The translations under genes and the position numbers were made by a program. From an uncultured Clostridium sp. (lineage in GTDB: Bacteria > Bacillota_I > Bacilli_A > RF39 > UBA660): a DNA stretch of 34,241 bases. Below, piece after piece: positions 1-33,103 of this stretch; the first letter of the stretch is position 1; the number at the start of each line of letters is the position of its first letter. Where the stretch lies: the NCBI GenBank assembly GCA_964652515.1, contig CAZZAK010000002.1, forward strand, positions 1-34,241, in the 5' to 3' direction. Under the pieces are notes generated by a model, which worked only from the letters and a program-made list of their open reading frames with translations, searched no databases and was not told the origin of the DNA.

Positions 1-902
1 TAGAAATGGAATTAAAAGGACTTTATCCTGATAAGAATATTGAGGCTGTTGTGGCTAGGGTAAGAGATATAGAAAGAATGGAAGATGTATTTAAAAAATA
101 TCGTCCTCATATAGTATTACATGCTGCTGCTCATAAACATGTACCACTTATGGAAAATAGTCCTTTGGAGGCTATTCATAACAATATATTTGGTACTTAT
201 AATACAGCAATTCTTGCAGATAAGTATAAGGTAGATAAATTTGTGTTAATATCTACTGATAAGGCTGTTAATCCTACAAACATTATGGGAGCTACTAAAA
301 GATTTTGTGAACTTATAATTCAAGCCAAAGATAAAAAGAGTAAAACAGATTATTGTGCTGTAAGATTTGGTAATGTATTAGGTTCTAATGGTTCTGTTAT
401 TCCACTATTTAAAAAACAAATTGCGAAGGGTGGACCTGTAACAGTAACTGATAAGAATATTACAAGATTTTTCATGACTATACCTGAAGCTGTTAGCTTA
501 ATACTTCAAGCTATTACTTATGCTAATGGTGGAGAAATATTTGTATTAGATATGGGAGAACCTGTTAAGATATATGATTTAGCAGAGACTTTAATTAAGC
601 TTACTGGTTATGTTCCTAATGTAGATATTCCTATTAAAATTACTGGTCTTAGACCTGGCGAAAAACTATATGAAGAGATATTGATGGCTGAGGAAGGGTT
701 AACTTCTACGAAACATGATAAGATATTTATATCTAAACCTACAGAAGTATCTTATAGTGATATAAGGGAGTCTTTAAAAGTGTTATCAATGATTGAATAT
801 AATAAGAATTATTCTATAAAGAGAGTAAAGGATACAATGAAGAAAGTTGTTCCTACATATCATGAATTTACTATGGAGGCTAAAAATGAAAAAAATAAAT
901 AA
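1..902 (+). CDS. CapD/PglF/WbpM-family NDP-sugar (UDP-GlcNAc-type) 4,6-dehydratase, C-terminal part; 5' end lies outside the window
   Basis: Frame 3 is open from the window edge. 'LHAAAHKHVPLMENSPLEAIHNNIFGT' and 'LISTDKAVNPTNIMGATKR' match the catalytic STDKA region of this family. Stop TAA 900-902 overlaps the next gene's start. Confidence 0.85.
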   Translation, partial: EMELKGLYPDKNIEAVVARVRDIERMEDVFKKYRPHIVLHAAAHKHVPLMENSPLEAIHNNIFGTYNTAILADKYKVDKFVLISTDKAVNPTNIMGATKRFCELIIQAKDKKSKTDYCAVRFGNVLGSNGSVIPLFKKQIAKGGPVTVTDKNITRFFMTIPEAVSLILQAITYANGGEIFVLDMGEPVKIYDLAETLIKLTGYVPNVDIPIKITGLRPGEKLYEEILMAEEGLTSTKHDKIFISKPTEVSYSDIRESLKVLSMIEYNKNYSIKRVKDTMKKVVPTYHEFTMEAKNEKNK

Positions 903-2106
903 TATCCCTTTTTCTCCACCTGATATTGGTGAAGATGAAATTAGTGAAGTAGTAGATACTTTGAAGAGTGGGTGGATTACCACAGGACCTAAAACTAAAG
1001 AATTTGAAAAACAAATAGCTAGTTTATGTGGAACTAATAAAGCTGTTTGTTTAGGTTCTGCTACTGCTTCATTAGAATTAATTTTACGTGTATTAGGCAT
1101 AGGGAAAGAAGACGAAGTAATAGTTCCTGCTTATACTTATACAGCTTCAGCTAGTCCTGTTTATCATGTTGGAGCTAAAATAGTTTTATGTGATATTGGG
1201 AAAGATAATCCTGAAATGGATTATGATAAGTTAGAAAAATTAATTAATGAGAACACTAAAGCTATAATTGCTGTTGATTTAGCTGGTATTATATGTGATT
1301 ATGATAAGATATATGAAATAGTTAATAGGAATAAGAAATTATTTCATGGTAATAATGATATTCAAAAGAATTTTGGTAGAGTAATTGTTATTGCTGACTC
1401 GGCTCATGGTATTGGGGCTACAAGATGCGGGATACATTCTGGTAATATTGCAGATTTTACTTCATTTTCATTTCATGCTGTTAAGAATTTAACTACTGCT
1501 GAAGGTGGTGCAGCTACTTGGAAACATACGGATTTTATTGATGATGAAAAATTATATAAAGAATTTCAATTACTATCTTTGCATGGACAAAGTAAAGATG
1601 CCTTTAGTAAAATGGGATTAGGTAATTGGGAATATGATGTAGTGGGATTAAACTATAAATGTAATATGACAGATATTATGGCTGGTATTGGACTTGCTCA
1701 AATGAGAAGATATTCTAAATTAATGAAAAGACGTCATCAAATAATTGATATGTATAATGATGCATTTAAGAAATTACCAGTAAAACTATTGAATCATGAA
1801 GATGAGAAACATTGTTCATCTGGTCATTTATATCTTGTTAGAGTAAATGGAATAGGGGAAGAAGTACGTAATCAAATAATTGTTAAAATGGCAGAATTAG
1901 GAGTGGCTACTAATGTACATTATAAACCACTACCTATGTTTACTGCTTATAAAAATTTAGGATTTGATATTAAAGATTATCCTAATGCTTACGAATTTTA
2001 TAAAAATGAAATTACGTTACCTTTATATAGTTTACTTACTGATGAACAGGTTAAGTATATAATTTCATCATTTAAAGAAGTATTAAAGGAATTAAACCTA
2101 TGCTAA
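886..2106 (+). CDS. DegT/DnrJ/EryC1/StrS-family PLP aminotransferase (PglE/EpsN-like sugar 4-aminotransferase)
   Basis: ATG 886 lies 6 nt after GGAGG 875-879; the ORF-track start at 847 has no RBS. N-terminus 'IPFSPPDIGEDEI..LKSGWITTGPK'. PLP-lysine motif 'SFHAVKNLTTAEGG'. Confidence 0.9.
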   Translation: MKKINNIPFSPPDIGEDEISEVVDTLKSGWITTGPKTKEFEKQIASLCGTNKAVCLGSATASLELILRVLGIGKEDEVIVPAYTYTASASPVYHVGAKIVLCDIGKDNPEMDYDKLEKLINENTKAIIAVDLAGIICDYDKIYEIVNRNKKLFHGNNDIQKNFGRVIVIADSAHGIGATRCGIHSGNIADFTSFSFHAVKNLTTAEGGAATWKHTDFIDDEKLYKEFQLLSLHGQSKDAFSKMGLGNWEYDVVGLNYKCNMTDIMAGIGLAQMRRYSKLMKRRHQIIDMYNDAFKKLPVKLLNHEDEKHCSSGHLYLVRVNGIGEEVRNQIIVKMAELGVATNVHYKPLPMFTAYKNLGFDIKDYPNAYEFYKNEITLPLYSLLTDEQVKYIISSFKEVLKELNLC

Positions 2107-2780
2107 AAAAATATAGTGATTTACCAAAAGAATTTCAGAATAAAAAAGTACGTAAGTATTATGAAATGTTAAGAAAAAAAAGATTATATTTGGTATTTAA
2201 ACGTTTATTTGATATAATTGGTGCTTTAATTTTATTAATAATTTTATCTCCAGTATTCTTAGTATTGGCTATTATGATAAAGTTAGATTCTAAAGGACCA
2301 GTATTTTATAGACAAGAACGTATTACTAAATATGGTAAAAAATTTAGAATATTTAAATTTCGTACTATGGTTGTAGATGCGGATAAAAAAGGTAGTTTAG
2401 TAACTACAAATAATGATAATCGTATTACTAAAGTAGGATATAAAATTAGAAATAGTAGATTAGATGAAATTCCTCAGCTAATTAATGTATTATTAGGAGA
2501 TATGTCTTTTGTAGGTACTAGACCAGAAGTAAAAAAATATGTTGATTTATATACAAATGAAATGTATGCAACATTATTATTACCTGCTGGTATTACATCA
2601 AAGGCTAGTATTAATTATAAAGATGAAGCAAAAATTATAGAAAAATATCAAGGTAAAATGGATGTTGACTCTATATATATGAAAAAAGTTTTACCTGAGA
2701 AGATGAAGTATAATTTAGAATATATTGAAAAGATAAGTTTTATTGAAGATTTAAAAACATGTATTAAGACTATATTATAA
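2100..2780 (+). CDS. Small monotopic phosphoglycosyl (bacterial sugar) transferase, PglC/EpsL/WbaP-C-terminal type; priming enzyme
   Basis: 226 aa with one N-terminal hydrophobic hairpin. 'SRLDEIPQLINVLLGDMSFVGTRPE' is the family signature. ATG overlaps the upstream stop (ATGCTAA, 2100-2106). Confidence 0.9.
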   Translation: MLKKYSDLPKEFQNKKVRKYYEMLRKKRLYLVFKRLFDIIGALILLIILSPVFLVLAIMIKLDSKGPVFYRQERITKYGKKFRIFKFRTMVVDADKKGSLVTTNNDNRITKVGYKIRNSRLDEIPQLINVLLGDMSFVGTRPEVKKYVDLYTNEMYATLLLPAGITSKASINYKDEAKIIEKYQGKMDVDSIYMKKVLPEKMKYNLEYIEKISFIEDLKTCIKTIL

Positions 2781-2796
2781 TAGATTGGAGTAAGGT

Positions 2797-3807
2797 ATGA
2801 CAGTAACATTTATAATTGTGGCATACAATGCTGAAAAATATTTAAATGATCCTTTGAATTGCTTGTTAGAACAAGATTATGATTTAAAAAAAATTGAGGT
2901 AATTCTTGTTGACAGTAATTCTACTGATAAAACAAAAAGAGTAATGTTGAATTTTAAAAAGAATTATGCTGCAAAATTTAAAAGAATAGTTTTATTAGAT
3001 AATCCTAAGAAAACATTGCCATGTGGTTGGAATGTTGCTTTAAAAAAATCAACTGGAGATACAATATTAAGAGTAGATGCTCATACAACATTTCCTAAAA
3101 ATTTTATAAGTGAGGATATTAAAGAAATAAATACAGGTGAGGATATTGTTGGAGGTAAATGTGAAAGCATAACTTTACATAATTCAAGAAAAGAAAAATT
3201 GTTATTAATCGCTGAAGAATCTATTTTTGGTGCTGGTATTGCTGATTTTAGGAGGAAACAATCTAGAGAGTATGTTAATACTTTGGCATTTGCAATGTAT
3301 AGAAAAAAAGTGTTTGATGATGTTGGCGAGTATAATGAAAATTTAGCAAGAACAGAAGATAATGAAATGCATTATAGAATGAGAAAGGCAGGATATAAAT
3401 TTTTGCTTTCTCCAAATATTAGGACATTCCGTTATGCTAGAAGTGATTTCAAAAGTATGTTAAAACAAAAATATGGCAATGGTAAATGGATTGGTATTAC
3501 GATGTATTATTCTCCTAAATGCTTTTCTTTATATCATTTTATTCCTTTATATTTTGTGATTGGGATAATATTTAGTGTAGTACTAGCTATTTTGCATATA
3601 CCAATATTTTTATATCTTTTAGCGGGTGCATATTTATTATTTAATATTATTAATCTAATTATTATTATGATAAATAATGGTTTTCATTTTGAATTTTTAT
3701 TGTTGCCATTTATATTTCTATTATTACACTTGTCATATGGTTTTGGAACTGTTGTTGGATTGTTGAAAGGACCTTTTTATAAATGGAAAAGAAAAAAAAT
3801 GTTATAG
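2797..3807 (+). CDS. Family 2 glycosyltransferase with a C-terminal multi-span membrane region
   Basis: 'VTFIIVAYNAEKYL', 'ILVDSNSTDKT', 'RVDAH' and 'EDNEMHYRMRKAGYK'. The last ~100 aa are strongly hydrophobic. GGAG lies upstream of the ATG. Confidence 0.85.
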   Translation: MTVTFIIVAYNAEKYLNDPLNCLLEQDYDLKKIEVILVDSNSTDKTKRVMLNFKKNYAAKFKRIVLLDNPKKTLPCGWNVALKKSTGDTILRVDAHTTFPKNFISEDIKEINTGEDIVGGKCESITLHNSRKEKLLLIAEESIFGAGIADFRRKQSREYVNTLAFAMYRKKVFDDVGEYNENLARTEDNEMHYRMRKAGYKFLLSPNIRTFRYARSDFKSMLKQKYGNGKWIGITMYYSPKCFSLYHFIPLYFVIGIIFSVVLAILHIPIFLYLLAGAYLLFNIINLIIIMINNGFHFEFLLLPFIFLLLHLSYGFGTVVGLLKGPFYKWKRKKML

Positions 3808-4790
3808 ATGTAACTATTATTGTTCCTGTATATAATGTAGAACATTATCTAAGAAAATGTTTAGATTCGTTAGTAAATCAAGATTATGATAATAAAAAAT
3901 ATGAAATTTTAATTGTTAATGATGCTTCAACGGATAAAAGTATTAATGTTATTTATGAATATCATAAACAATATTCAAATATTAGTGTTTATGATTTGAA
4001 AAAAAATGGTGGTGTTTCAAACGCAAGAAATATTGGTATTGAAAATGCTAAAGGTCAATATCTAATGTTTTGTGATGCGGATGATTATTATGATACCAAT
4101 GCTATTAGTATTATGATGTCTTATGTAAAAAAAGAGAAAGCTGACTTTATTATGGCTAATTATTATATTACTAATGGTATTAATAAAATTTCCGTAGATG
4201 TTTCTGGTTATTTTAGTAATATGATTATATCTAGAGAGGAAATTGTCAGTTATATGACGTTAACTTCAAGTGCTAAATTGATAAAGAAAGATTTATTTAT
4301 TAATAATAATATAAGTTATCCTACTGACTTAAAAAGGTGTGAAGAATTGAGCGTTATTCCTATTGTGGCTTATTTTGCCAATAAGGCTGTTGTTATTAAG
4401 GATACTTTATATTATTATTATCAACGAAGTGATTCTGTTTCCAATACAAATTCTAAAAAAACTCCTATTGGTGATTTAGATTATTTTGATAAATCTTTTG
4501 AGAGATTTGTTGCTAATATAGATTCTTTAAAATATTCTCAGGAAATCGAATTTAGAGCTATTGATCATTTACTATACGGGAAATCATTAGTTATGTTAAA
4601 GTCTGGGGTGCAAAGAAAATATATAGTTAATCATATTAATGATTTTAAAAGAAAGTATTGTAAATTTACCAGAAATATTTATTTTAAAAAATATAATATA
4701 GGTAAAAAAATATTTGTATATTCGTTAAATTGTAAGTTGTTATTTGTTTCTAAATTATTAGCTTATATACACGGAAAATTAACGGGGTGA
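3783..4790 (+). CDS. Family 2 glycosyltransferase
   Basis: 'VTIIVPVYNVEHYLRKCLDSLVNQDY', 'ILIVNDASTDKS' and 'GGVSNARNIGIENAKGQYLMFCDADD'. Overlaps the upstream gene by 25 nt. Confidence 0.9.
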   Translation: MEKKKNVIDVTIIVPVYNVEHYLRKCLDSLVNQDYDNKKYEILIVNDASTDKSINVIYEYHKQYSNISVYDLKKNGGVSNARNIGIENAKGQYLMFCDADDYYDTNAISIMMSYVKKEKADFIMANYYITNGINKISVDVSGYFSNMIISREEIVSYMTLTSSAKLIKKDLFINNNISYPTDLKRCEELSVIPIVAYFANKAVVIKDTLYYYYQRSDSVSNTNSKKTPIGDLDYFDKSFERFVANIDSLKYSQEIEFRAIDHLLYGKSLVMLKSGVQRKYIVNHINDFKRKYCKFTRNIYFKKYNIGKKIFVYSLNCKLLFVSKLLAYIHGKLTG

Positions 4791-4796
4791 AATTAT

Positions 4797-5986
4797 ATGT
4801 TAGAAAAGATTAAGAAAATGAAATTAATTGATTATTGGCATTTCTTAATATTAATTTTATGTTATATTCCAAGTTTGGTTTTAAAATTTATTTATCCTAA
4901 CATTTGGATTGTATCTGAAAATGGCGATGATGCAAAGGATAATGGTTTTGCTTTCTTTAAGTATATGATGACTAGTCATCCTGAAATTAAATGCTATTAT
5001 ATAATAACAAAACAAGCTAAGGATTATAAGAAGGTAGAGAAGTATAGTAAAAATCTTTTAATACATAATTCAATCAAGAGTATAATTTATATAATGGGAT
5101 GTAAGAATTTTGTATCATCACAATTGGCATCTAGTTTTCCATATTCTAATATATTTTTTAATTTGTATATGGCTCATGTTTTTAAATTTAATTATATATT
5201 TTTGCAACATGGTATAACAAAAGAGAATGTTAAATGCTTTTATAAGAACGAGAGCAATATTGACTTATTTTGTTGTGCAGCTAATCCAGAATATGATTAT
5301 GTAAAGGAATATTTTGGCTATAAAGATTATGAGGTTTCTAAACTTGGATTTTGTAGATATGATAACTTGAGTAGTGAGTTTACCAATGACGATAGCATAT
5401 TATTTATGCCTACGTGGCGTAAGTATCTTGAAGCTAGAGATGGTGTAATTAATTCAGACATTGAAAAACAATTTTTGAGTTCTAAGTACTATAAAACTAT
5501 TTATAAGTTGATTAATGATAGAAGACTAATTGAGTCTTTAGAAAAGAATAATAAAATATTGTATTTTTGTCTTCACGATAAAGCTATGATATATAAAAAA
5601 TATTTTACTTCTCCAAGTAAAAATATTATTATTGTGGATAAAAGCAGTTCTAAGACAGTTGATAAGTTAATTAGAGAATGTAAATATTTAATTACTGATA
5701 CATCAAGTGTATCTTTTGATTTTGCTTATCAAAAAAAACGATTATTGTATTATCAATTTGATTACAATGATATAATTAAAGGTCATTGGAGTAAGGGATA
5801 TTTTAATTATGATAAGGATGGTTTGGCAAGGTAGTTAAAAATCACAATGATTGTGTTAATGAAATTATTTTAGCAATTAATGAAAAATTTAAAAATAGTA
5901 AATTATATGAGCAAAGAACTAAAAATTTCTATTGTTTTAATGATAAAAATAATTGTGAGAGAACATTTAATAAGATAAGAGAATTA
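4797..5986 (+). pseudogene. TagF/TagB-family CDP-glycerol (polyol-phosphate) glycerophosphotransferase; reading frame broken by a one-base frame change near 5820-5824
   Basis: Frame-0 ORF 4797-5834 has 'LQHGITKENV', 'FMPTWRKY' and 'LITDTSSVSFDFAYQKKRLLYYQFDY'. It stops at TAG 5832-5834. The family-typical C-terminus ('FGKVVKNHNDCVNEIILAI...NDKNNCERTFNKIREL') continues in the -1 frame from 5822. Confidence 0.75.
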
Positions 5987-6076
5987 TCTGACATTAAAGA
6001 TGTAGAAAGAAAAAATAGGCGTATTAAAAATCATAAAAAAAATTATTTATTTGTTATACTAGTATCTTTACTTATT
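5816..6076 (+). other. Upstream extension of the Wzy-like ORF, with no start and no stop codon, in frame 2
   Basis: I translated this stretch codon by codon. There is no stop and no ATG/GTG/TTG between 5816 and the ATG at 6077. It encodes the TagF-like C-terminus, then the basic cluster 'ERKNRRIKNHKK', then the first half of a hydrophobic helix. Confidence 0.8.
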
Positions 6077-7444
6077 ATGTTGTTGGGAATAACATTTAAT
6101 CAATATATTTTGATGTTATTTGCTACTATTTTATTGTTTTTTCATAATTTATATTATGGTTTATTAATGCCTAAAAAAAATATATTCTTTAATTTATTTC
6201 ATGTATCTATTTTTACCTTTTTATTAGGCAAACCAATTATTCAAACCCTTTCTAGTGTTAAATGGTGGATTAAATATTCTGAATATTCTGAGAAAATGAC
6301 TTTAATTAGTATTTGGTTAACTTTATTAGGATTATTTTTGGGTTCATTTTTGAATAATAATAGAAAATTAAATGTGGATAACAAGTTTATTCTTGGAAAA
6401 AAATACTTTAATGAAAATATTTACTATATTAGAAAATATTCATTCATTATGTTTATGATAACTATATTATTTAGGTATGTTTGTGAGATTGAAAAATATA
6501 TCTTTATGTATGGTAAATCTTATACCGAATATTACTTATCATATTATTCTAGTTTGCCTTCTGTAGTCAATTTAATTGGTGGTATGGCTGTAACTTTTTT
6601 AGTTATATACTTAGTAACATTGCCAAACAAAAAAGCTACAATAGGAGTAGCATTAATATACTTGTGTTCATTTATTCCTAATTTTTTGATTGGTCAAAGA
6701 AATCCTTTAATTTTAGCTGCTTTATTATTCTTTTCATATTATGTAGTACGTGATTGGTATGAAAATTCTAACAAGTGGGTTAATGTTAAGGAAAGATTTT
6801 TGATATTGTTGATTATTCCAGTATTGATTATAGGACTTGATATATATAATTATAAGAGAGATAATGCTAGACTTAATGGTAATATGTTTGAATCTTTTGT
6901 TGATTTCTTTTATACACAAGGCATATCTTTCGATGTGTTAAATATTGGCTATAGCAATATGGATACGATTAGGTCAATGAATAAAAATTATGTTTTTGGA
7001 CCTATAGTAGATTATTACAGAGATAATACAATTGCTAAAAAAGTATTTAAGTTACCTGGCCTTGGTATAGGCAATAATGAAGTAAGAGCATTGAAGGGGA
7101 ATAGTTTTACACATATTTTAGCTTATTTGTCACGTAGTGATTACTTACAAGGTCATGGTTATGGTTCATCTTATATACTTGAGTTGTATTGCAATTATGG
7201 ATTTATTGGCTTGTTTATATTCTCAATACTTTTAGGATTTTTATTAGTTAATATTCCAATTATAATTAAATCTCAGAGTTTATTATCAATTATTGTATTG
7301 CAAATGTGTATGACTATTTATTTTCTTCCTCGAGCTGAAACCATGTCTAGCATTATGTTCATATTTACTCCTCATTTTTTAGGAAGCTTGATAGTAATGT
7401 GGTTTATAATTTATATTAAAAAAAATTTTGAGGTGTTAAGATGA
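6077..7444 (+). CDS. Wzy-like polysaccharide (O-antigen/capsule repeat-unit) polymerase, polytopic membrane protein
   Basis: About 10-12 hydrophobic segments and a large loop ('...NSFTHILAYLSRSDYLQGHGYGSSYILELYCNYGFIGL'), placed between transferases and the flippase. The first ATG (6077) has no SD and sits inside a predicted helix, so the true N-terminus is uncertain. Confidence 0.7.
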   Translation: MLLGITFNQYILMLFATILLFFHNLYYGLLMPKKNIFFNLFHVSIFTFLLGKPIIQTLSSVKWWIKYSEYSEKMTLISIWLTLLGLFLGSFLNNNRKLNVDNKFILGKKYFNENIYYIRKYSFIMFMITILFRYVCEIEKYIFMYGKSYTEYYLSYYSSLPSVVNLIGGMAVTFLVIYLVTLPNKKATIGVALIYLCSFIPNFLIGQRNPLILAALLFFSYYVVRDWYENSNKWVNVKERFLILLIIPVLIIGLDIYNYKRDNARLNGNMFESFVDFFYTQGISFDVLNIGYSNMDTIRSMNKNYVFGPIVDYYRDNTIAKKVFKLPGLGIGNNEVRALKGNSFTHILAYLSRSDYLQGHGYGSSYILELYCNYGFIGLFIFSILLGFLLVNIPIIIKSQSLLSIIVLQMCMTIYFLPRAETMSSIMFIFTPHFLGSLIVMWFIIYIKKNFEVLR

Positions 7445-8964
7445 GAACAAAGAAATCTGCTAGAAATGTGATTGTATCAACATTTAATAGTATTTTAAAT
7501 ATTATTATTAGTTTGTTTGTTCAGAAAATATTTTTAAGGATATTAGGTGAATCTTATTTAGGTTTGAATGGCGTTTTTAGCAATATGTTATCTATTTTAG
7601 CTGTTGCTGAGCTTGGTATTGGTACAGCAATAGTATATAAAATGTATCGTCCAATTGAGGAAAAAAATGAAAAACAAATTGCTAAATTAATGAATTTTTA
7701 TCGTAGATGTTATCGTATTATTATTTCTGTTATGATTTTAATAATATTGATAATATTACCATTTTTAAGGTATATCATTGGCGATACCTCTGATATAAAA
7801 GAAAATATTTATTTATTATATGGGCTCTTTTCATTAGATATTTTAATATCTTATTTGTTAGCTTACAAAAAATCTATTCTTTATGCTGATCAAAATGAGT
7901 ATATATCGAATTTGGTTCATTTAGGATATTTGATTTTCATGAATAGTTTACAAATATTTTTTCTTATTAAAACTCACGAATATTTAATATACTTAATTAT
8001 AAAGATTGCTTGTAGGTTTTTAGAAAATTTATTAATTAACTTTATTGTTAATAGAAAATATGCGTATATAGGTAGAAATAAGAATTTAGAACTTGATAAA
8101 AATGAGCAGAAAGATATATTTAAAAAAATTAAATCATTGTTTTTACATAAATTAGCTGGTTTTGTTGTAACTGGTACGGATACTATATTAATATCATTTT
8201 TTTTGGGAGGATTAGTTACTGTTGGATATTATTCTAATTACAGTTTGATAATTTCTGCAGTAACAACAGTATTTAATCAGGTATTTATTTCTATTACGTC
8301 CAGTGTTGGTAATTTATTAGTTACCGAAAGTAAAGCAAAAAGATTGGAAGTATTTAATAAGATTCAGTTTTTAAATTTTTGGTTTTTTGCTTTTGCTAGT
8401 ATTTGTATATTTTGTATAATAGAGCCATTTATTACTATATGGATTGGTTCAAAATATATTTTGTCAAAATTTGTATTAATATCTTTGGTATTTAACTTTT
8501 TTATGCAGGGTATGCGTAGAACAATGATGTCTTTTAAGGAAGCTGCTGGAATTTTTTATGAAGATAGGTATGTCCCAATTATTGAATCAGTTATTAATTT
8601 GGTTGCTTCAGTTATTTTCTTAAAAATATTTGGTTTGGCAGGGGTATTTTTAGGAACAATAACTAGTACTTTAATTGTGTATTTATATAGTTATCCTAAA
8701 ATTGTGTATGAAACGTTGTTTGGTGAAAAAGGTATAAAGTATGTGTTGTTAATTGGAAAGTATACAGTTGTTGGTACTTTTACTTTAGTAGTTACGTATT
8801 GTATTGTAAATATTATCAATATTAACAATGATTATTTACGTGTTTTGATAAATATGATTATTTGTATGGTTGTTCCCAATGTTCTATTTATGATTATATA
8901 TTGGAATAATTGTAATTTTAAATATTATTTAAATATCGTAAAAAAAATAATTCATAGAAAATAA
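7441..8964 (+). CDS. Wzx-type oligosaccharide flippase (MOP/polysaccharide biosynthesis protein family)
   Basis: 507 aa polytopic protein. N-terminus 'KKSARNVIVSTFNSILNIIISLFVQKIFLRILGESYLGLNGVF' is typical. The start overlaps the upstream stop (ATGA, 7441-7444). Confidence 0.85.
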   Translation: MRTKKSARNVIVSTFNSILNIIISLFVQKIFLRILGESYLGLNGVFSNMLSILAVAELGIGTAIVYKMYRPIEEKNEKQIAKLMNFYRRCYRIIISVMILIILIILPFLRYIIGDTSDIKENIYLLYGLFSLDILISYLLAYKKSILYADQNEYISNLVHLGYLIFMNSLQIFFLIKTHEYLIYLIIKIACRFLENLLINFIVNRKYAYIGRNKNLELDKNEQKDIFKKIKSLFLHKLAGFVVTGTDTILISFFLGGLVTVGYYSNYSLIISAVTTVFNQVFISITSSVGNLLVTESKAKRLEVFNKIQFLNFWFFAFASICIFCIIEPFITIWIGSKYILSKFVLISLVFNFFMQGMRRTMMSFKEAAGIFYEDRYVPIIESVINLVASVIFLKIFGLAGVFLGTITSTLIVYLYSYPKIVYETLFGEKGIKYVLLIGKYTVVGTFTLVVTYCIVNIININNDYLRVLINMIICMVVPNVLFMIIYWNNCNFKYYLNIVKKIIHRK

Positions 8965-8997
8965 AAACTATAAATTAATTTTAATTTATAGTTTTTT
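8965..8997. terminator. Bidirectional intrinsic terminator between convergent genes
   Basis: 12-bp perfect stem, AAACTATAAATT (8965-8976) / AATTTATAGTTT (8983-8994), followed by a T-run on the + strand. The A-rich sequence 8958-8967 supplies the weaker U-tract for the minus strand. Confidence 0.7.
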
Positions 8998-10048
8998 ATT
9001 TAAATAGTGATTCATAGTCGTAGTTTAGATAAAAATTCTTGATATCTTCTATATGCTTTTTATAATTGTCTTTTGTAAGTAAATTATCTTTGGTAGATAT
9101 TTTTTTTAATATAAATGAGTTTATTTTTTCACTGTAATGTCTAATATCTTTGTAATTATTTAAATCAGTGATTATATCATATTCATTTAAAAAGGAATAT
9201 ATATAGATATTTTTATGTTCTAATAGCAATTCTGTTACATACTGAATACAATCTAATTGCATATTTAATACTCCTTCTTGGTTGGCATTATCCCAATAGT
9301 AGATACTGTATGGAGGGTAAAATAAATAAAAATCAATATTTGGATATTTATCTGCTAAATCCGTTACATTTTGTTTAATATTTTCCCAAGCATTTTTGTA
9401 ATCAATTTGAGTAGTAATATATGTTGATTTTTTTGACATCCTAATATATTGTGAATTAGTAGCTTTTTTTGAAAATTCATACTTATTATACCATGATGCG
9501 TAATCATCAAATGATGTGCTATTTTGTTTAGTAGCTGTTTTAATGATTGATTCAAATGCATTGGTTATAGCATTTTTATTTAACAAATAATTAATATCAT
9601 TTAATTTATTATCATCATATAAATATTTTGGATAGTTATTTGAATTATATGCTATAGCATCTTTTGGTTCATTTAATTTATATAAATCTAGACATCTCAA
9701 TATTATTTTTATATTGTCATTGTAATTTGTGGCTGTTATTAAATTATCGTTGATTTCTTTAAACATTGCTCCTGCAAATGGTATTTTAATGCTATTAACA
9801 TTAAATAATTTATTAAATTCAGAAACTTTAAAATTTTCTACCATTGATGTTCCTGTTATTATTGCATTGTAATCAAAATGTTTTATAATACCATCGTTTT
9901 GGTATCTTTCATTATCGAGAATATATGCAATATTTGTTGATGGTTTACGATAATGAAAATATGGGTCAATTATAACTACTATGAATGCGAAAAAAAGAAG
10001 AATAAGTGAAGATATAATTAATAGTGTAATTACAAATTTTTTGCTCAT
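8996..10048 (-). CDS. Membrane-anchored extracytoplasmic protein, DltD/SGNH-like; probable acyl-transfer partner of the MBOAT (paralog 1)
   Basis: N-terminal TM segment. Candidate nucleophile block 'AIITGTSMVENF'. C-terminal D-x-x-H ('KDIRHYSE'). Last gene of the MBOAT operon. The family call is by motif and context only. Confidence 0.5.
   Translation of the reverse strand: MSKKFVITLLIISSLILLFFAFIVVIIDPYFHYRKPSTNIAYILDNERYQNDGIIKHFDYNAIITGTSMVENFKVSEFNKLFNVNSIKIPFAGAMFKEINDNLITATNYNDNIKIILRCLDLYKLNEPKDAIAYNSNNYPKYLYDDNKLNDINYLLNKNAITNAFESIIKTATKQNSTSFDDYASWYNKYEFSKKATNSQYIRMSKKSTYITTQIDYKNAWENIKQNVTDLADKYPNIDFYLFYPPYSIYYWDNANQEGVLNMQLDCIQYVTELLLEHKNIYIYSFLNEYDIITDLNNYKDIRHYSEKINSFILKKISTKDNLLTKDNYKKHIEDIKNFYLNYDYESLFK
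9675..9916. repeat. Near-identical 242-nt block shared by the two DltD-like paralogs (copy 1)
   Basis: Aligns without indels to 10776-11017 at a constant offset of 1101 nt, with about 18 mismatches by hand count. The flanking gene sequence is clearly more diverged. Confidence 0.85.
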
Positions 10049-10090
10049 GCTTTATTTCTCCTTTGATATGATTTCTTTAAAATTTAGTTA

Positions 10091-11152
10091 TTAATTAGAG
10101 AAGAGCTTATCATAGTTGTAATTTGTATAAAATTCTCTAATATCATTTATTTTGCTTTTATAATTATCTTTGTTAATAATCTTTTCATTATTTGCCATTT
10201 TCTGAAGCATAATTGAATTGATTTTTTCACTATAATGCTCGGTATCTTTATAATTATTTAGGTTAGTAATAATCTCATATTCATCTAAAAAAGAATATAG
10301 ATGTATGTTTTTATGTTCTAATAATAATTTTGTTGTATATTCGATATAATCTAATTCTTTATTTAGATCTCCATTCTGATTGAGATTATCCCAATAATAA
10401 ATACTATATGGAGGATAAAATAAATAGAAATCTATGTTTGGATATTTATCTGCTAAATTTGTTACATTTTGCTCAATATTATTTTTTATAGTAATATAGT
10501 CTTTCTTGGTTATTATTCTATTTTTCTTTTTTTTGCTGCTTCTAATATATTGTGAATCTACCATATCTTTTGAAAACTCAACACCAGTATATTTGTACCA
10601 AGCACTATAGTCATCAAATGTAGTGCTGTTTTCATTATCAATTGTTTGTTTTAGGAAATTAATAGAGTTAATAATAATGTCTTTATTTAATAAATATTCA
10701 ATATCATTAAATATATTGTTATCATATAAATATGTTGGATATGTATCATAAGCTATAGCATTTTTAGGTTTATTCAATTTATATAAATCTAAACATCTCA
10801 ATATTATTTTTATATTGTCATTGTAATTTGTGGCTGTTATTAAATTGTCGTTTATTTCTTTAAACATAGCTCCTTCAAATGGTATTTTAATGCTATTAAC
10901 GTTAAATAGTTTATTAAACTCAGAAACTTTAAAATTTTCTGTCATTGATGTTCCTGTTATTATTGCATTGTAGTCAAAGTGCTTTACAATCCCATCATTT
11001 TGATATCTTTGATTATCTAATGTGTAAGTTAAATGTTTTATTGGTTTATGATAATGAAAACAAGGATCAATAATAATAACAAATGAACTTAGTAAAACAA
11101 AAATAGTAATAGTAGATATTAAAGTGATAATTACAAACTTTTTACTTGACAT
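10091..11152 (-). CDS. Membrane-anchored extracytoplasmic protein, DltD/SGNH-like; probable acyl-transfer partner of the MBOAT (paralog 2)
   Basis: Same architecture as 8996-10048 ('AIITGTSMTENF', 'KDTEHYSE'). Immediately downstream of the MBOAT gene. Confidence 0.5.
   Translation of the reverse strand: MSSKKFVIITLISTITIFVLLSSFVIIIDPCFHYHKPIKHLTYTLDNQRYQNDGIVKHFDYNAIITGTSMTENFKVSEFNKLFNVNSIKIPFEGAMFKEINDNLITATNYNDNIKIILRCLDLYKLNKPKNAIAYDTYPTYLYDNNIFNDIEYLLNKDIIINSINFLKQTIDNENSTTFDDYSAWYKYTGVEFSKDMVDSQYIRSSKKKKNRIITKKDYITIKNNIEQNVTNLADKYPNIDFYLFYPPYSIYYWDNLNQNGDLNKELDYIEYTTKLLLEHKNIHLYSFLDEYEIITNLNNYKDTEHYSEKINSIMLQKMANNEKIINKDNYKSKINDIREFYTNYNYDKLFSN
10776..11017. repeat. Near-identical 242-nt block shared by the two DltD-like paralogs (copy 2)
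   Basis: See copy 1 (9675-9916). Confidence 0.85.
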
Positions 11153-11167
11153 AGTAATCCCCCTTTA

Positions 11168-12622
11168 TTAAAAATTGAAATATAAAAATGTACTAATTCC
11201 ACTAAATGATATAATACTCCATACTAGTAGTATAACTACCTTGATAATATTAATAGGTGTTGATTTGAATTTTTTGGCTTTTTCAATTGTATTTAAAGAA
11301 CCTAGCATAATTATAAATGTAATTATAAAAAATAATAGTGGTATGGCATATGGAAAATATAAATCAATTTTTAATGTTTTAAAAATTAAATTTAGTTCTG
11401 GTAATTCAAATGCGTTAATTATATTTTCATTAATTGGCCCAAAGTTACATAAAAGGATACGATAAATAATTCTTAATGCTTGTTTTATTGAATCTGCTCT
11501 AAAGAAAATCCATGCAATATTTACAAAGCCAAATGTTATCATCCAATTAAGAACTGGATGTAATTTGTCAAAGAAATTTTTATATTTTCTAGTAACTACA
11601 GAAAAAATTCCATGTAGTAATCCCCAGAAGACAAATGTCCAATTGGCACCATGCCAAAAACCACTTATTATAAATATGATTAATATATTAATGTATGTTC
11701 TTTTGACTCCTTTCTTGCTACCGCCAAGTGGAATATAAATATATTTTGTGAAGAATCTTGTTAATGTCATATGCCATCTATCCCAAAAATCATTGATATT
11801 TAATGCTTTATATGGTGAATTGAAATTAGTTGGTAAATCAATATTAAACATTTTGCCTAAGCCTATAGCCATATCGGAATATCCAGAGAAATCAAAGTAT
11901 ATTTGAATTGTGTAAGATAGCATTATAATTATAGAATTTGTTGTATTGAGAGTATCAATATTGCTGTAACCCCAGTTGACAGCTATTCCAAATACGTCAG
12001 CAATTAATACTTTTTTTGCAAGCCCTAATGTGAATATATAAATACCTTTGGCTAAATTATCCCAGTTAATGCTTTTGTTTTTTTGGTTTAAAAATTGTGG
12101 TATTAATTCATCATAAGTTACAATGGGTCCAGCAATTAGCTGTGGAAAGAATGCTACGAATGATGCATAGTATAGAAAACTATAGTTCGGAACTTCTTTT
12201 TTGTATGCATCAATAACAAATGATAATTGTTGAAATGTAAAAAAACTTATTCCTAAAGGCAATACAATATTTAAAAGATTAAAATTACAATTAAACAATT
12301 TATTAATATTGTCTATAAAGAAATCCATGTACTTGTAGTAGATAAGTATTCCAATATTAAATAATAATCCTATGTATAGGAGTAATTTTCTTGAATTCTT
12401 TTTTTCTGTGATTTTAAAAATATGGTAAATCAAATAATTTATGATAATACTTAAGATAATAATTAATAAATAATATATATTAAAGTATGCATAAAACCAT
12501 AGTGACATAATTAGTAAAAATGCCTGTGCTAATTTGTATTTTTTAAAATGATTTAAAGTAAAGTATCCTAACAAACATATTGGTAAAAATAAAAATAGAA
12601 AAATATATGAATTAAATAACAT
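11168..12622 (-). CDS. MBOAT-family membrane-bound O-acyltransferase, AlgI/PatA-like
   Basis: Start moved to the ATG at 12622 ('MLFNSYIF...', the canonical MBOAT N-terminus), 7 nt after GGAGG (plus-strand CCTCC 12630-12634). 'DFWDRWHMTLTRFFTKYIYIPLGGS' and 'SGFWHGANW' contain the conserved His. Confidence 0.9.
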   Translation of the reverse strand: MLFNSYIFLFLFLPICLLGYFTLNHFKKYKLAQAFLLIMSLWFYAYFNIYYLLIIILSIIINYLIYHIFKITEKKNSRKLLLYIGLLFNIGILIYYKYMDFFIDNINKLFNCNFNLLNIVLPLGISFFTFQQLSFVIDAYKKEVPNYSFLYYASFVAFFPQLIAGPIVTYDELIPQFLNQKNKSINWDNLAKGIYIFTLGLAKKVLIADVFGIAVNWGYSNIDTLNTTNSIIIMLSYTIQIYFDFSGYSDMAIGLGKMFNIDLPTNFNSPYKALNINDFWDRWHMTLTRFFTKYIYIPLGGSKKGVKRTYINILIIFIISGFWHGANWTFVFWGLLHGIFSVVTRKYKNFFDKLHPVLNWMITFGFVNIAWIFFRADSIKQALRIIYRILLCNFGPINENIINAFELPELNLIFKTLKIDLYFPYAIPLLFFIITFIIMLGSLNTIEKAKKFKSTPINIIKVVILLVWSIISFSGISTFLYFNF

Positions 12623-12641
12623 GCTGTTTCCTCCTTTTTTT

Positions 12642-12670
12642 ATTATATATGTATTCTTTTTGAAAATCAA
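12642..12670 (-). promoter_or_regulatory. Sigma-A-type promoter for the MBOAT operon
   Basis: On the minus strand: TTGATT (12670-12665), 17-nt spacer, TATAAT (12647-12642), just upstream of the RBS. Confidence 0.5.
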
Positions 12671-12696
12671 TTGTATTATGCTATATATAAAATATA

Positions 12697-12726
12697 TTGA
12701 CAATGTTCTTATATACAATTTATAAT
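12697..12726 (+). promoter_or_regulatory. Sigma-A-type promoter for the DUF3048 gene
   Basis: TTGACA 12697-12702, 18-nt spacer, TATAAT 12721-12726. The ATG at 12747 is preceded by AAGGTAGG. Confidence 0.55.
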
Positions 12727-12746
12727 TATATTAAGGTAGGTGTCAT

Positions 12747-13817
12747 ATGAGAAGTAAAATATCTAAGGGTAATGGTAAATCAAAAAGGTTAATATTTATA
12801 TTACTTATTGCAGTAGTGACTATTATAGGAATAGTTCTAATATGTATTAAATTTTTAAGTAAATCTTCTGAATCTAAAAATATTGATGTTAAAAAACCAG
12901 ATGATCCAGTTGTAGAAAAGCAAGTGCAAATAATAGACATTAATTCTAAAACTAGACCATATGCTGTCATGATTAATTGTCTTAATGAAGCGTTACCTCA
13001 ATCTGGATTAGATAAAGCATATATTGTTTATGAACTTATGGTAGAGTATGGAATAACAAGAATGTTTGCTTTATTTAAGGATGTAGACTTTGATAAAGTG
13101 GGATCAGTTAGAAGTGTTAGAAGTCAATACTTACCATATTTATTTGAAAATGATGCAATACTTGTTCATGCTGGTGGGCAAAAAGAAACTATTGATAGAA
13201 TAGCTAATGAAGGAATAACTCATATTGATGTAGATGGTCAATATGGTGTTAGAGATGGTGAACTTGCTAAAAAAAGAGCTTGGGAACATACTTTATTTAC
13301 TAATTCTAATTTGCTTTCTAAAGCTGTATCAAATATGAATATTAGGAGCACTACCGATACTAAAAATTTATTAACTTATAGTGCTTCCGAATTAGATTTA
13401 TCTAAGTATGAAACTAAGGATGCTAAAAACATTAGTATTAAGTATTCTAATTATCGTACTTCTAATTATAGTTATGATGAGAATAGTAAAACTTATTTAC
13501 GTTCCATGAATGGTACTAAGAATGTAGACTTAGTTAGTGGTAAACAATATCAAGTTAAAAATATTATTGTATATGGTGCTAAGTATACGACTTATACTTT
13601 AAGAGGAACTGGATATCAAAAGATAGAGGATATTACTTCTGGGGAGGGATACTATATTACTGATGGGGTAGTTCTTCCTATTACTTGGAGTAAATCTAGT
13701 GAAAAAGCTCAAACTGTTTATAAAATAAAAGAAGATGGAAAAGAATTAGTTGTTAATGATGGTAATACTTATATTCAGATATATCCATCTAATGGTGGAA
13801 ACTTATCTATTAGTTAA
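12747..13817 (+). CDS. DUF3048 (YerB-like) membrane-anchored protein of unknown function
   Basis: N-terminal TM segment. 'RPYAVMINCLNEALPQSGLDKAYIVYELMVEYGITRMFALF' matches the DUF3048 core as I remember it. Confidence 0.75.
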   Translation: MRSKISKGNGKSKRLIFILLIAVVTIIGIVLICIKFLSKSSESKNIDVKKPDDPVVEKQVQIIDINSKTRPYAVMINCLNEALPQSGLDKAYIVYELMVEYGITRMFALFKDVDFDKVGSVRSVRSQYLPYLFENDAILVHAGGQKETIDRIANEGITHIDVDGQYGVRDGELAKKRAWEHTLFTNSNLLSKAVSNMNIRSTTDTKNLLTYSASELDLSKYETKDAKNISIKYSNYRTSNYSYDENSKTYLRSMNGTKNVDLVSGKQYQVKNIIVYGAKYTTYTLRGTGYQKIEDITSGEGYYITDGVVLPITWSKSSEKAQTVYKIKEDGKELVVNDGNTYIQIYPSNGGNLSIS

Positions 13818-13826
13818 TTTAAGTGT

Positions 13827-13859
13827 AAAAAAATATCAATATTTATTGGTATTTTTTTT
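13827..13859 (+). terminator. Possible weak intrinsic terminator
   Basis: AT-rich hairpin (ATCAAT / ATTGGT core with one G-U pair, extended by A/T pairs) followed by a T-run at 13852-13859. Confidence 0.35.
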
Positions 13860-13897
13860 AATTTATATTAATTTATGGTATACTTAATATATGGGAG

Positions 13898-15103: not shown

Positions 15104-15104
15104 A

Positions 15105-16322: not shown

Positions 16323-16325
16323 TTA

Positions 16326-18161: not shown

Positions 18162-18165
18162 TAAT

Positions 18166-19599: not shown

Positions 19600-19625
19600 A
19601 AATTAATGGGAAAAGGGTAGTAATA

Positions 19626-27310: not shown

Positions 27311-27343
27311 ATGCTTGACAAAGCATTTTCTTTATGTTAGTAT
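27311..27343 (+). promoter_or_regulatory. Sigma-A-type promoter overlapping a short hairpin that could also terminate gatCAB
   Basis: TTGACA 27315-27320, 17-nt spacer, TGtTAGTAT (TG 27335-27336, -10 27338-27343). The inverted repeat ATGCTT (27311-27316) / AAGCAT (27321-27326), followed by TTTTCTTT, includes the -35. Confidence 0.5.
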
Positions 27344-27374
27344 AGTTGGTAATTTTAAAAGGAGGATTTTAATT

Positions 27375-32999: not shown

Positions 33000-33103
33000 A
33001 AATTACCTCCTTAACTAATTATAAGTGTAAAATTATGAAAAATCAATTAATTTTATTTTATTTAAAAACATTATATGTTATTATGTATTTGAGGAAGTGC
33101 TAT

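What the first reader, a model, noticed from the sequence alone, without database searches (positions are those of the whole stretch)
4797..7444. One-base frame break in the TagF-like gene; its displaced C-terminus runs in frame, with no stop or start codon, into the Wzy-like polymerase
The frame-0 ORF (4797-5834) carries TagF/TagB-family motifs and ends '...YDKDGLAR' at TAG 5832-5834. Reading from T5822 in the -1 frame gives 'FGKVVKNHNDCVNEIILAINEKFKNSKLYEQRTKNFYCFNDKNNCERTFNKIREL', which is how this family normally ends. So gat-ggt|ttt-ggc (D-G-F-G-K-V-V) is restored either by one extra base in the GG/TTT runs at 5820-5824 or by a -1 slip. I translated frame 2 codon by codon: it has no stop and no ATG, GTG or TTG from 5816 to the ATG at 6077. 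The in-frame residues before that ATG ('ERKNRRIKNHKKNYLFVILVSLLI') are a basic cluster plus the first half of a hydrophobic helix. M6077 therefore sits inside a predicted TM segment, and it has no Shine-Dalgarno. Every other junction in this operon overlaps or is at most 16 nt, so this apparent 242-nt gap is the only exception. The simplest reading is an ancestral single ORF 4797-7444 encoding a glycerophosphotransferase fused to a repeat-unit polymerase. I do not know of such an architecture. It is now inactivated, phase-varied or mis-sequenced.
Basis: partly seen in the sequence, partly recalled or inferred. Interest (0 to 1): 0.7.

Follow-up and report, generated by a model that had tools for sequence, protein, structure and literature searches.

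The report
Broken TagF–Wzy fusion gene
One missing T splits a gene that, in every related assembly examined, encodes a single ~880-residue protein joining a teichoic-acid-type phosphotransferase to a sugar-repeat polymerase; the break is an ordinary mutation or error, but the fused enzyme is a real, conserved design for which four full-text literature searches found no report.

Summary
Frame 0 (4797-5834) stops at TAG 5832. Frame 2 is open for 87 codons from 5816 to ATG 6077, with no ATG, GTG or TTG and no Shine-Dalgarno.

Six metagenome contigs carry the same gene, identical or differing by one substitution, with GGTTTTGG where the window has GGTTTGG. A seventh contig, from a 97%-identical strain, also has it intact. 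All encode one 882-aa protein.

That protein has a PF04464 TagF-like domain (residues 35-394), a 20-residue K/R-rich linker and a PF14296 Wzy polymerase (from residue 416). M6077 is residue 428, inside TM1.

Eighteen more protein clusters (39-63% identity; Erysipelotrichaceae and Clostridia MAGs) keep the fusion in a conserved cell-wall glycopolymer cassette. One protein has the reverse domain order. Others fuse the TagF-like domain to PF04932 polymerases. A split version also exists.

The broken allele occurs in one other assembly. There is no slippery site, RNA structure or repeat tract, so recoding and phase variation are unsupported. The most likely cause is a recent loss-of-function mutation; a sequencing error is less likely.

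The frameshift is ordinary. The fusion family is a modestly novel variant.

The parts
4797..5834 (+). 5' part of the broken fusion gene. It covers TagF/TarL-like domain residues 1-342, then 3 out-of-frame residues (L-A-R) and TAG. It is called as a 345-aa protein (P0122).
   Evidence: (PF04464).
5820..5826 (+). Break site GGTTTGG. The T run 5822-5824 has 3 T where all seven intact relatives have 4 (GAT GGT TTT GGC = D-G-F-G).
   Evidence: G342, F343 and G344 are invariant in 19 fusion proteins.
5822..5980 (+). Displaced C-terminal ~53 residues of the TagF-like domain (residues 343-395), now in frame 2 and untranslated.
   Evidence: The Pfam PF04464 match runs through to residue 394 of the repaired protein. 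Alignments to TarL 8VA1 and TagF 3L7I run across the break.
5981..6040 (+). Linker, residues 396-415 (ELSDIKDVERKNRRIKNHKK), with 8 K/R in 20 residues. It is predicted cytoplasmic and is modelled as one continuous helix with the last TagF helix and TM1.
   Evidence: charges; helix 386-433.
6041..6097 (+). First transmembrane helix of the Wzy part (residues 416-434). It contains ATG 6077 (residue 428), which is not a native start.
   Evidence: The Pfam PF14296 match begins at residue 419, 9 residues before M428. M428 is not conserved in the family. Stand-alone relatives have 22-34 residues ahead of the start of the Pfam PF14296 match (profile positions 3-15).
6041..7444 (+). Wzy-type repeat-unit polymerase domain (PF14296, TIGR04370), residues 416-882 plus the stop. 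The portion 6077-7444 is called as a 455-aa protein (P0125).
6..4790 (+). Upstream genes of the same cassette. 6-902: CapD/PglF-like dehydratase, cut by the contig start. 847-2106: DegT aminotransferase. 2100-2780: small polyprenyl-phosphate sugar-phosphate transferase. 2797-3807 and 3783-4790: two GT2 glycosyltransferases.
   Evidence: The same order is seen in distant fusion loci.
7441..8964 (+). 507-aa protein overlapping the fusion gene's stop. It is the presumed Wzx-type flippase, but the only family hit is weak.
   Evidence: NF041503 WZX_like, E = 6e-4, far below the curated cut-off. A ~510-aa gene is conserved in this position.
8996..12718 (-). MBOAT O-acyltransferase (11168-12718) and two tandem paralogous 350/353-aa partner genes (8996-10048, 10091-11152). 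This module also accompanies the fusion gene in a distant locus.

Best explanation
Window 4797-7444 is one gene, not two. In its intact form it encodes an 882-residue bifunctional membrane protein with three parts:
- an N-terminal cytoplasmic TagF/TarL-like polyol-phosphate transferase (GT-B-like fold, residues ~35-394);
- a 20-residue lysine/arginine-rich linker that continues as a helix into the membrane;
- a C-terminal multi-pass Wzy-type repeat-unit polymerase (residues 416-882).

The gene sits in a conserved Wzx/Wzy-type cassette for a cell-wall glycopolymer: dehydratase, aminotransferase, initiating phosphosugar transferase, two GT2, the fusion, a flippase-like protein, an MBOAT module and, at the orthologous locus, an LCP ligase.

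Inferred mechanism. The TagF-like domain adds a glycerol- or other polyol-phosphate to the undecaprenyl-linked repeat unit at the cytoplasmic face. After flipping, the Wzy domain of the same polypeptide polymerises the units, giving a teichoic-acid-like polymer.

In this contig the gene has lost one T from a T4 run (GGTTTTGG to GGTTTGG at 5820-5826). The transferase is therefore cut 4 codons later, losing its last ~53 domain residues. The polymerase part is left with no start codon or ribosome-binding site. I take this as a genuine, very recent loss-of-function allele in the sampled population, that is a fresh pseudogene, and not a programmed event.

Shown: the single-gene identity, the exact lesion, the domain content and the conservation of the fusion. 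Inferred: the donor substrate, the order of steps, and that the lesion is real rather than a read error.
For: Identity of the lesion:
- The window gene equals the intact genes of L001-L005 at every base except one missing T. L006 has one further substitution.
- Over 17.4 kb, the window and L001 differ by 2 SNPs and this single gap.
- A 97%-identical strain (L105, GCA_016648615.1) also has T4 and an intact ORF.

Fusion is native:
- On the repaired protein, PF04464 covers residues 35-394 and PF14296 covers 419-875. TIGR04370 also matches.
- Eighteen further fusion clusters at 39-63% identity have DGFG invariant at the break.
- Eight MAG loci carry uninterrupted ORFs of 862-909 aa.
- The cassette is conserved around fusions of 41-49% identity.
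- The AF2 model has pLDDT 83 and pTM 0.72, with helix 386-433 joining the two domains.
- Foldseek's top hits are TagF, Bcs3/Cps3D and TarL.
- H260 aligns with the TagF residue at position 584.

Selection for the link:
- The reverse-order fusion P0021 is homologous in both halves.
- The TagF-like domain is also fused to unrelated PF04932 polymerases.

Lesion likely real:
- The same T3 allele is in a second assembly. L104 (sample SAMN15829912) is 100% identical to window 4128-5913.
- The rest of the contig shows no other indel against L001.
Against: No reads are available, so a read or consensus error cannot be excluded. L104 may come from the same reads as the window, in which case it is not independent support.

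From established knowledge of Wzy-dependent pathways (Und-P sequestration; Xayarath and Yother 2007, listed in the references of PMC5065235), a null polymerase with an intact initiating transferase is usually harmful. That argues somewhat against a fixed real allele.

No CDP-glycerol or CDP-ribitol synthesis gene is in the window or in the related cassettes, so the donor substrate of the TagF-like domain is unassigned.

The flippase assignment rests on a weak hit.
Confidence: 0.6

Rival explanations
1. Sequencing or assembly artefact. The organism's gene is intact (T4), and the missing T is a consensus error in a low-coverage metagenome contig.
For: The gene is otherwise base-for-base identical to five intact copies. 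The lesion is a one-base change in a homopolymer. A real null allele of Wzy would be expected to be costly (established knowledge). L104 may derive from the same reads.
Against: The T3 allele appears in two assemblies. No other indel occurs in 17.4 kb against L001. T4 is a very short homopolymer for short-read indel error.
Confidence: 0.3
2. Programmed recoding (-1 ribosomal frameshift) or phase variation. The T3 state would be a regulated OFF or low state, from which full-length protein is still made or regained.
For: Both T3 and T4 alleles exist among near-identical sequences. Surface-polysaccharide genes are common contingency loci (general knowledge).
Against: - There is no X XXY YYZ slippery heptamer in the 5816-5832 window where the shift would have to occur (sequence).
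- There is no downstream structure: z = 0.29 against shuffles.
- There is no repeat tract.
- T3/T4 is far below the tract lengths that slip at useful rates.
- Every relative is simply in frame, with GGT TTT or GGA TTT.
Confidence: 0.05
3. Two working genes. The 345-aa TagF-like protein and a 455-aa Wzy starting at ATG 6077 (or at a non-canonical codon upstream) would both be functional in this strain, representing a natural fission of the fusion.
For: A split arrangement exists in a related cassette. In L106/L107 a 394-aa stand-alone TagF-like gene and a separate PF14296 Wzy gene have a GT4 gene between them. Gene callers annotated the window as two proteins.
Against: - The 345-aa product lacks the last ~53 residues that stand-alone homologues (about 394 aa) retain.
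- ATG 6077 has no SD and removes half of TM1.
- M428 is not conserved.
- Only ATT/ATA codons lie upstream.
- The lesion is a single base in an otherwise identical gene, so there has been no time for adaptation.
Confidence: 0.04

Closest known systems
TagF / TarL / TagB family (PF04464; structures 3L7I, 8VA1)
   Same: The N-terminal domain matches the Pfam model far above cut-off. It folds like TagF in the AF2 model. It keeps the invariant His residues and the ITDxSS motif. The C-terminal tail displaced by the frameshift aligns with the TarL and TagF C-termini.
   Different: Classical members are peripheral membrane proteins that stand alone and often polymerise poly(Gro-P) or poly(Rbo-P) in an ABC-transporter-dependent pathway. 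Here the domain is covalently joined to a Wzy polymerase and sits in a Wzx/Wzy-type cassette, so it probably adds a single polyol-phosphate per repeat unit (inference). The donor is unknown.
Wzy repeat-unit polymerases (PF14296 O-ag_pol_Wzy; TIGR04370)
   Same: The C-terminal 467 residues match both models. They are multi-pass helical and lie beside a flippase-like gene.
   Different: Described Wzy proteins are stand-alone (for example the 502-519-aa relatives in L015-L017). This one has a 395-residue cytoplasmic enzyme on its N-terminus.
Multidomain enzymes containing a TagF-like domain: GT2-TagF bifunctional proteins and the capsule polymerases Bcs3/Cps3D (8A0M, 8QOY)
   Same: A TagF-like domain is fused to another enzyme of the same pathway. 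These are the next best sequence and fold matches.
   Different: In those proteins the partners are soluble cytoplasmic glycosyltransferases or phosphatases. Here the partner is an integral membrane polymerase that acts on the other face of the membrane.
Clostridioides difficile PSII cell-wall glycopolymer locus (CD2775 glycerophosphotransferase, CD2777 predicted polymerase; PMC5065235)
   Same: It is a Wzx/Wzy-like cell-wall polymer locus in a Firmicute. It holds a PF04464-type gene, GT2 genes, a polymerase, an MviN-type flippase and LCP ligases.
   Different: The transferase and the polymerase are separate genes there. The cassette composition and the initiating sugar pathway also differ.

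Membership tests
TagF/TarL-type CDP-polyol phosphotransferase (PF04464) | Sequence match to the family model above its curated cut-off | tested here: met
   105.8 bits against a cut-off of 22.1, covering residues 35-394 and profile positions 15-365 of 367.
TagF/TarL-type CDP-polyol phosphotransferase (PF04464) | GT-B-like two-domain fold resembling solved TagF/TarL | tested here: met
   AF2 model with pLDDT 83. Foldseek top hits are TagF 3L7J (E = 2.9e-8, probability 1.00), Bcs3 8A0M and TarL 8VA1.
TagF/TarL-type CDP-polyol phosphotransferase (PF04464) | Conserved histidines corresponding to TagF H444 and H584 | tested here: inconclusive
   H260 (invariant) aligns with TagF H584. H138 in the invariant LQHGIT motif is the likely H444 equivalent, but the HMMER alignment starts at TagF residue 471, so that column was not aligned. 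That these are the catalytic residues is from memory of the TagF structural work (H444N variants are PDB entries).
TagF/TarL-type CDP-polyol phosphotransferase (PF04464) | Transfers glycerol- or ribitol-phosphate from a CDP-activated donor | not testable with these tools
   No TagD or TarI/TarJ gene is in the window or the related cassettes. The donor is unassigned.
Wzy repeat-unit polymerase (PF14296 / TIGR04370) | Match to family models above cut-off | tested here: met
   PF14296: 292.1 bits against a cut-off of 26.6. TIGR04370: 80.9 bits against 40.
Wzy repeat-unit polymerase (PF14296 / TIGR04370) | Multi-pass membrane topology | tested here: met
   About nine or more distinct hydrophobic segments between residues 416 and 871. 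The AF2 model is all-helical from residue 386 to the C-terminus. The exact TM count was not determined.
Wzy repeat-unit polymerase (PF14296 / TIGR04370) | Context of a Wzx/Wzy pathway (initiating transferase, GTs, flippase, ligase) | tested here: met
   Bac_transf, two GT2 genes, a weakly Wzx-like 507-aa gene, and LCP upstream at the orthologous locus L001. The flippase call is weak.
Programmed -1 ribosomal frameshift site | Slippery heptamer, downstream stimulatory structure, and conservation of the frame change in relatives | tested here: not met
   No X XXY YYZ motif in 5816-5832. Fold z-score 0.29. All relatives are in frame.
Phase-variable contingency locus (slipped-strand) | Long homopolymer or short tandem repeat tract within the ORF | tested here: not met
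   The tract is only T3/T4, and TRF finds nothing at the site.

The most novel reading that the evidence does not exclude
The TagF::Wzy proteins may define an undescribed class of Wzy-dependent teichoic-acid-like polymer synthases. In this class the cytoplasmic polyol-phosphate capping of the lipid-linked repeat unit would be physically and functionally coupled to polymerisation on the outer face. For example, the polymerase might accept only units finished by its own transferase domain, or might use the installed polyol-phosphate as the acceptor.

The pairing has arisen repeatedly: TagF then Wzy, Wzy then TagF, and TagF fused to PF04932 polymerases with or without GT2. This argues for selection on the coupling itself and not on co-expression alone.
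Probability: 0.3. Interest if true: 0.6.

Novelty: new variant of a known kind. Interest (0 to 1): 0.38.

Why it matters
For annotation, the two called proteins (345 aa and 455 aa) are halves of one disrupted gene. The 455-aa 'Wzy' start at 6077 is an artefact of the frameshift.

For biology, the intact gene shows that a Wzy polymerase can carry a cytoplasmic TagF-like transferase on the same chain. Bacteria have made this link several times, in both orders and with two different polymerase families. This fusion is evidence that the last cytoplasmic step and polymerisation work together in Wzx/Wzy pathways. That idea is hard to test with separate proteins.

It also points to a conserved, uncharacterised teichoic-acid-like wall polymer in uncultured gut Bacilli and Clostridia.

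The frameshift itself, if real, is a routine loss of a surface polymer. Such losses are often selected by phage, which is general knowledge and was not tested here.

Tried and rejected
- Programmed frameshifting was rejected. There is no slippery heptamer and no RNA structure (z = 0.29), and all relatives are in frame.
- Phase variation was rejected. There is no repeat tract.
- An internal start for Wzy was rejected. There is no ATG/GTG/TTG in 87 codons and no SD. M428 is not conserved, and Pfam homology starts upstream of it.
- The window's species was sought among 185k GTDB representative genomes. The fusion-gene scan found only relatives of at most 57% identity. GatB was at most 66% identical, to uncultured Bacilli or 'Tenericutes' MAGs. 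The organism is therefore only placed as an uncultured gut Bacillus-class bacterium.
- A scan of JGI metagenome contigs for either allele found only the GCA_016648615.1 contig, which has T4.
- Four literature searches found no description of a TagF-Wzy fusion: Wzy + glycerophosphotransferase + fusion; PF14296; TagF + Wzy; Wzy + CDP-glycerol + fused. The library does not include most subscription journals.
- No CDP-glycerol or CDP-ribitol synthesis genes were found in the window.
- No solved Wzy-like structure appeared among the 50 Foldseek hits listed, which were all GT-B-fold matches to the N-terminal TagF-like domain.
- P0123, a 186-aa member of the cluster, is only a C-terminal fragment and says nothing about the break.
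Full report
**1. Observation**

- The frame-0 ORF 4797-5834 encodes 345 residues ending YDKDGLAR, followed by TAG at 5832-5834.
- In the frame of position 5822, translation reads GWFGKVVKNHNDCVNEIILAINEKF...NKIRELSDIKDVERKNRRIKNHKKNYLFVILVSLLIM and runs on, unbroken, to the stop at 7442-7444.
- The last upstream stop in that frame is TAA 5813. The 87 codons from 5816 to 6076 hold no ATG, GTG or TTG, only ATT and ATA codons.
- In this 26% GC DNA, an 87-codon open stretch has a probability of about 1.3e-4 from base composition. None of 2359 off-frame open runs inside the window's own genes reaches that length; the maximum is 69.
- ATG 6077 has no purine-rich motif upstream, unlike its neighbours.
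- All other plus-strand junctions overlap or are at most 16 nt apart.

**2. What the repaired product is**

Using T5822 twice, which is equivalent to inserting one T, gives an 882-residue protein.

- Pfam places PF04464 (CDP-glycerol glycerophosphotransferase, TagF family) on residues 35-394, matching profile positions 15-365 of 367 at 105.8 bits.
- Pfam places PF14296 (O-antigen polymerase Wzy) on residues 419-875 at 292 bits.
- NCBIfam adds TIGR04370, oligosaccharide repeat unit polymerase.
- M6077 is residue 428, so Wzy homology begins 9 residues upstream of it.
- The first hydrophobic segment is residues 416-434 and contains M428. The 20 residues before it carry 8 K/R, which fits a cytoplasmic location.
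- The displaced tail is a genuine TagF-family C-terminus. Sequence alignments to TarL (8VA1) and TagF (3L7I) run straight through the break. For example, YESFVPGKIVQSFD in TarL aligns with YDKDGFGKVVKNHN.

**3. The intact gene exists**

Its cluster also contains P0121, P0124 and the window's own two halves, P0122 (345 aa) and P0125 (455 aa), both from a contig of 34,241 bp.

- P0121 is residue-for-residue the repaired protein. It is encoded on contigs from several independent metagenome assemblies, L001-L005.
- The window gene differs from those five genes at exactly one position. They have GGTTTTGG where the window has GGTTTGG. L006 has one further substitution.
- Over 17,445 aligned bases, the window and L001 differ by two substitutions and this one gap.
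- A more distant strain (L105, from GCA_016648615.1, 97.2% identical over 14.7 kb) also has T4 and an intact ORF. Its protein differs by two residues.
- Gene order is the same in all of them.

**4. The fusion is a conserved family, not an accident of one lineage**

- Eighteen further 90%-identity clusters (P0002-P0019; 852-888 aa; 39-63% identity) carry both Pfam domains in the same order.
- In their alignment, G342-F343-G344, the residues at the break, are invariant. So are H138, H260, T300, D301, S303 and S304 in the transferase half, and many polymerase residues.
- Eight species-representative MAGs contain uninterrupted ORFs of 862-909 aa, with GGT TTT GG or GGA TTT GG at the motif. One is an Erysipelotrichaceae MAG from rumen. 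The others are labelled Clostridia, Eubacteriales or Clostridiales.
- The neighbourhood is conserved even at 41-49% identity: CapD-like dehydratase, DegT aminotransferase, small Bac_transf initiating transferase, two GT2, the fusion, a ~510-aa protein, then LCP and/or an MBOAT module.
- The ~510-aa protein has no Pfam domain. In the window it hits WZX_like only weakly.

**5. The same pairing recurs in other forms**

- P0021 (881 aa) has the reverse order, Wzy first and TagF-like last. Both halves are homologous to the window protein, at 29% and 36% identity, and it sits in a different cassette.
- An exhaustive profile search of 1.84 billion representatives followed by Pfam shows close relatives of the TagF-like domain fused to a different polymerase family, PF04932 Wzy_C. 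These occur with or without an extra GT2 domain (P0204, P0246, P0259). The membrane half of P0204 shows no BLAST similarity to ours.
- That search also shows PF14296 Wzy fused to a GT4 glycosyltransferase (P0169).
- A split state exists too. In L106/L107 the same cassette has a 394-aa stand-alone TagF-like gene, a GT4 gene, and then a separate PF14296 Wzy.
- Stand-alone Wzy relatives in L015-L017 have 22-34 residues ahead of the start of the Pfam PF14296 match (profile positions 3-15). This confirms that a start at M6077 would be truncated.

**6. Structure**

- AlphaFold2 with the 19-sequence alignment gives mean pLDDT 83 and pTM 0.72.
- The model has an alternating strand/helix domain to about residue 380. 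One long helix, 386-433, then runs from the last TagF helix through the linker into TM1. The rest is an all-helical membrane domain.
- Foldseek against the PDB ranks TagF (3L7J, E = 2.9e-8) first, followed by the Bcs3 and Cps3D capsule multienzymes and TarL.
- Truncation at residue 342 removes a strand and three helices of the transferase domain. I infer, but have not shown, that the 345-aa product is unstable or inactive.

**7. Nature of the lesion**

The missing T lies in a run of only four.

- The shift would have to occur in the 17-nt interval 5816-5832, and no X XXY YYZ slippery motif is there.
- The downstream RNA folds no better than shuffles, with z = 0.29.
- Tandem Repeats Finder sees nothing at the site.
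- Every relative is simply in frame.

Programmed frameshifting and slipped-strand phase variation are therefore not supported.

The choice between a real mutation and an error cannot be settled without reads. Two points favour a real allele.
- The identical T3 sequence appears on a second assembly. L104 is a 1786-bp scaffold from sample SAMN15829912 and is 100% identical to window 4128-5913.
- The window shows no other indel against L001.

Two points weigh against it.
- L104 may come from the same reads as the window.
- From established knowledge of Wzy pathways, a polymerase null with an intact initiating transferase tends to be harmful.

I put a real, recent loss-of-function allele at about 0.6, an artefact at about 0.3, and everything else below 0.1.

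**8. How it probably works (inference)**

The cassette has a dehydratase and an aminotransferase but no acetyltransferase. This suggests an amino-dideoxy-hexosamine as the first sugar on undecaprenyl phosphate. Two GT2 enzymes then extend it.

The TagF-like domain is held at the inner membrane face by its tether to TM1. A conserved N-terminal hydrophobic helix (residues 10-32, invariant P25) may also anchor it. The domain adds a polyol-phosphate. The unit is then flipped, polymerised by the Wzy domain, O-acylated by the MBOAT module and attached to peptidoglycan by LCP.

No CDP-glycerol or CDP-ribitol synthesis gene is in the window or the related cassettes, so the donor is unknown.

**9. Comparison with what is known**

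Both halves pass the membership tests for their families; see the table. What differs is the covalent union of a cytoplasmic TagF-like enzyme with an integral-membrane Wzy.

Known TagF-domain fusions have soluble partners, such as GT2-TagF proteins and Bcs3/Cps3D. The C. difficile PSII locus keeps the glycerophosphotransferase (CD2775) and the polymerase (CD2777) as separate genes (PMC5065235).

Four full-text searches found no description of the fusion. None of the database copies carries a name. Absence from a partial library is not proof of novelty.

**10. Verdict**

The frame break itself is ordinary. The underlying architecture is a real, conserved and recurrent fusion of two known enzyme kinds, and is best rated as a new variant of a known kind. 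Interest is modest, at 0.38.

The organism is an uncultured gut member of the Bacilli. Its GatB is at most 66% identical to any species representative. The related samples carry ruminant gastrointestinal metagenome labels.

Noticed in passing
window 8996-10048 (-) and 10091-11152 (-): Two adjacent 350/353-aa genes with no Pfam or NCBIfam hit are about 78% identical to each other at the DNA level. This is a tandem duplication directly downstream of the MBOAT gene (11168-12718, -). A distant fusion locus (L102) has a single 349-aa gene in the same position, so they are probably the extracytoplasmic partner of the O-acyltransferase.
   Followed up: partly
window 1-14689 versus L105 (JAEEGL014259120.1): Divergence between the two strains is mosaic. 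There are 49-115 differences per kb in window 1-3000 and 50-72 per kb in 13000-14689, but only 3-7 per kb across 3000-13000, which covers the GT2 genes, the fusion, the flippase-like gene and the MBOAT module. This suggests recent recombination or transfer of the central cassette.
   Followed up: partly
L106 5211-6321 and L107 4047-5157: In the split-state cassette, the GT4 glycosyltransferase between the stand-alone TagF-like gene and the Wzy gene is called as two pieces (235 + 141 aa, overlapping). This may be another frameshifted gene.
   Followed up: no
proteins P0204, P0246, P0259, P0188, P0169, P0134, P0143, P0131, P0196: There are other large fusions around polymerases: TagF-like + PF04932 Wzy_C (with or without GT2), PF14296 Wzy + GT4, and PF14296 Wzy followed by 270-380 residues with no Pfam domain. 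Wzy fused to cytoplasmic enzymes appears to be a wider, undescribed theme.
   Followed up: partly
L015 7200-8922 and L017 8274-9996: Stand-alone PF14296 Wzy genes related to this one are preceded by a TarJ-like alcohol dehydrogenase gene and, upstream of it, an unexamined 238-aa ORF that I guess to be TarI-like; together these would make CDP-ribitol. This clade of Wzy may be generally tied to polyol-phosphate-containing repeat units.
   Followed up: partly
window 13898-20858 (+): A run of genes for alanine racemase, an ATP-grasp-like protein (weak hits only), an AsnB-type amidotransferase, a Mur-ligase-family protein and a 410-aa protein with no family hit. It looks like a peptidoglycan stem-peptide or amino-acid-ligation module next to the glycopolymer cassette.
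   Followed up: no
window 27315-29315, 29330-31075, 31132-31524, 33035-33919 (+): Four ORFs (666, 581, 130 and 294 aa) downstream of gatCAB have no Pfam hit at E <= 0.001.
   Followed up: no
repaired protein residues 10-32 (window 4824-4892): A conserved hydrophobic N-terminal helix with an invariant proline (P25) precedes the TagF-like domain in all fusions, and is retained in the reverse-order protein P0021. If it spanned the membrane, it would conflict with the K/R-rich linker being cytoplasmic. It may instead be a monotopic or re-entrant anchor.
   Followed up: partly
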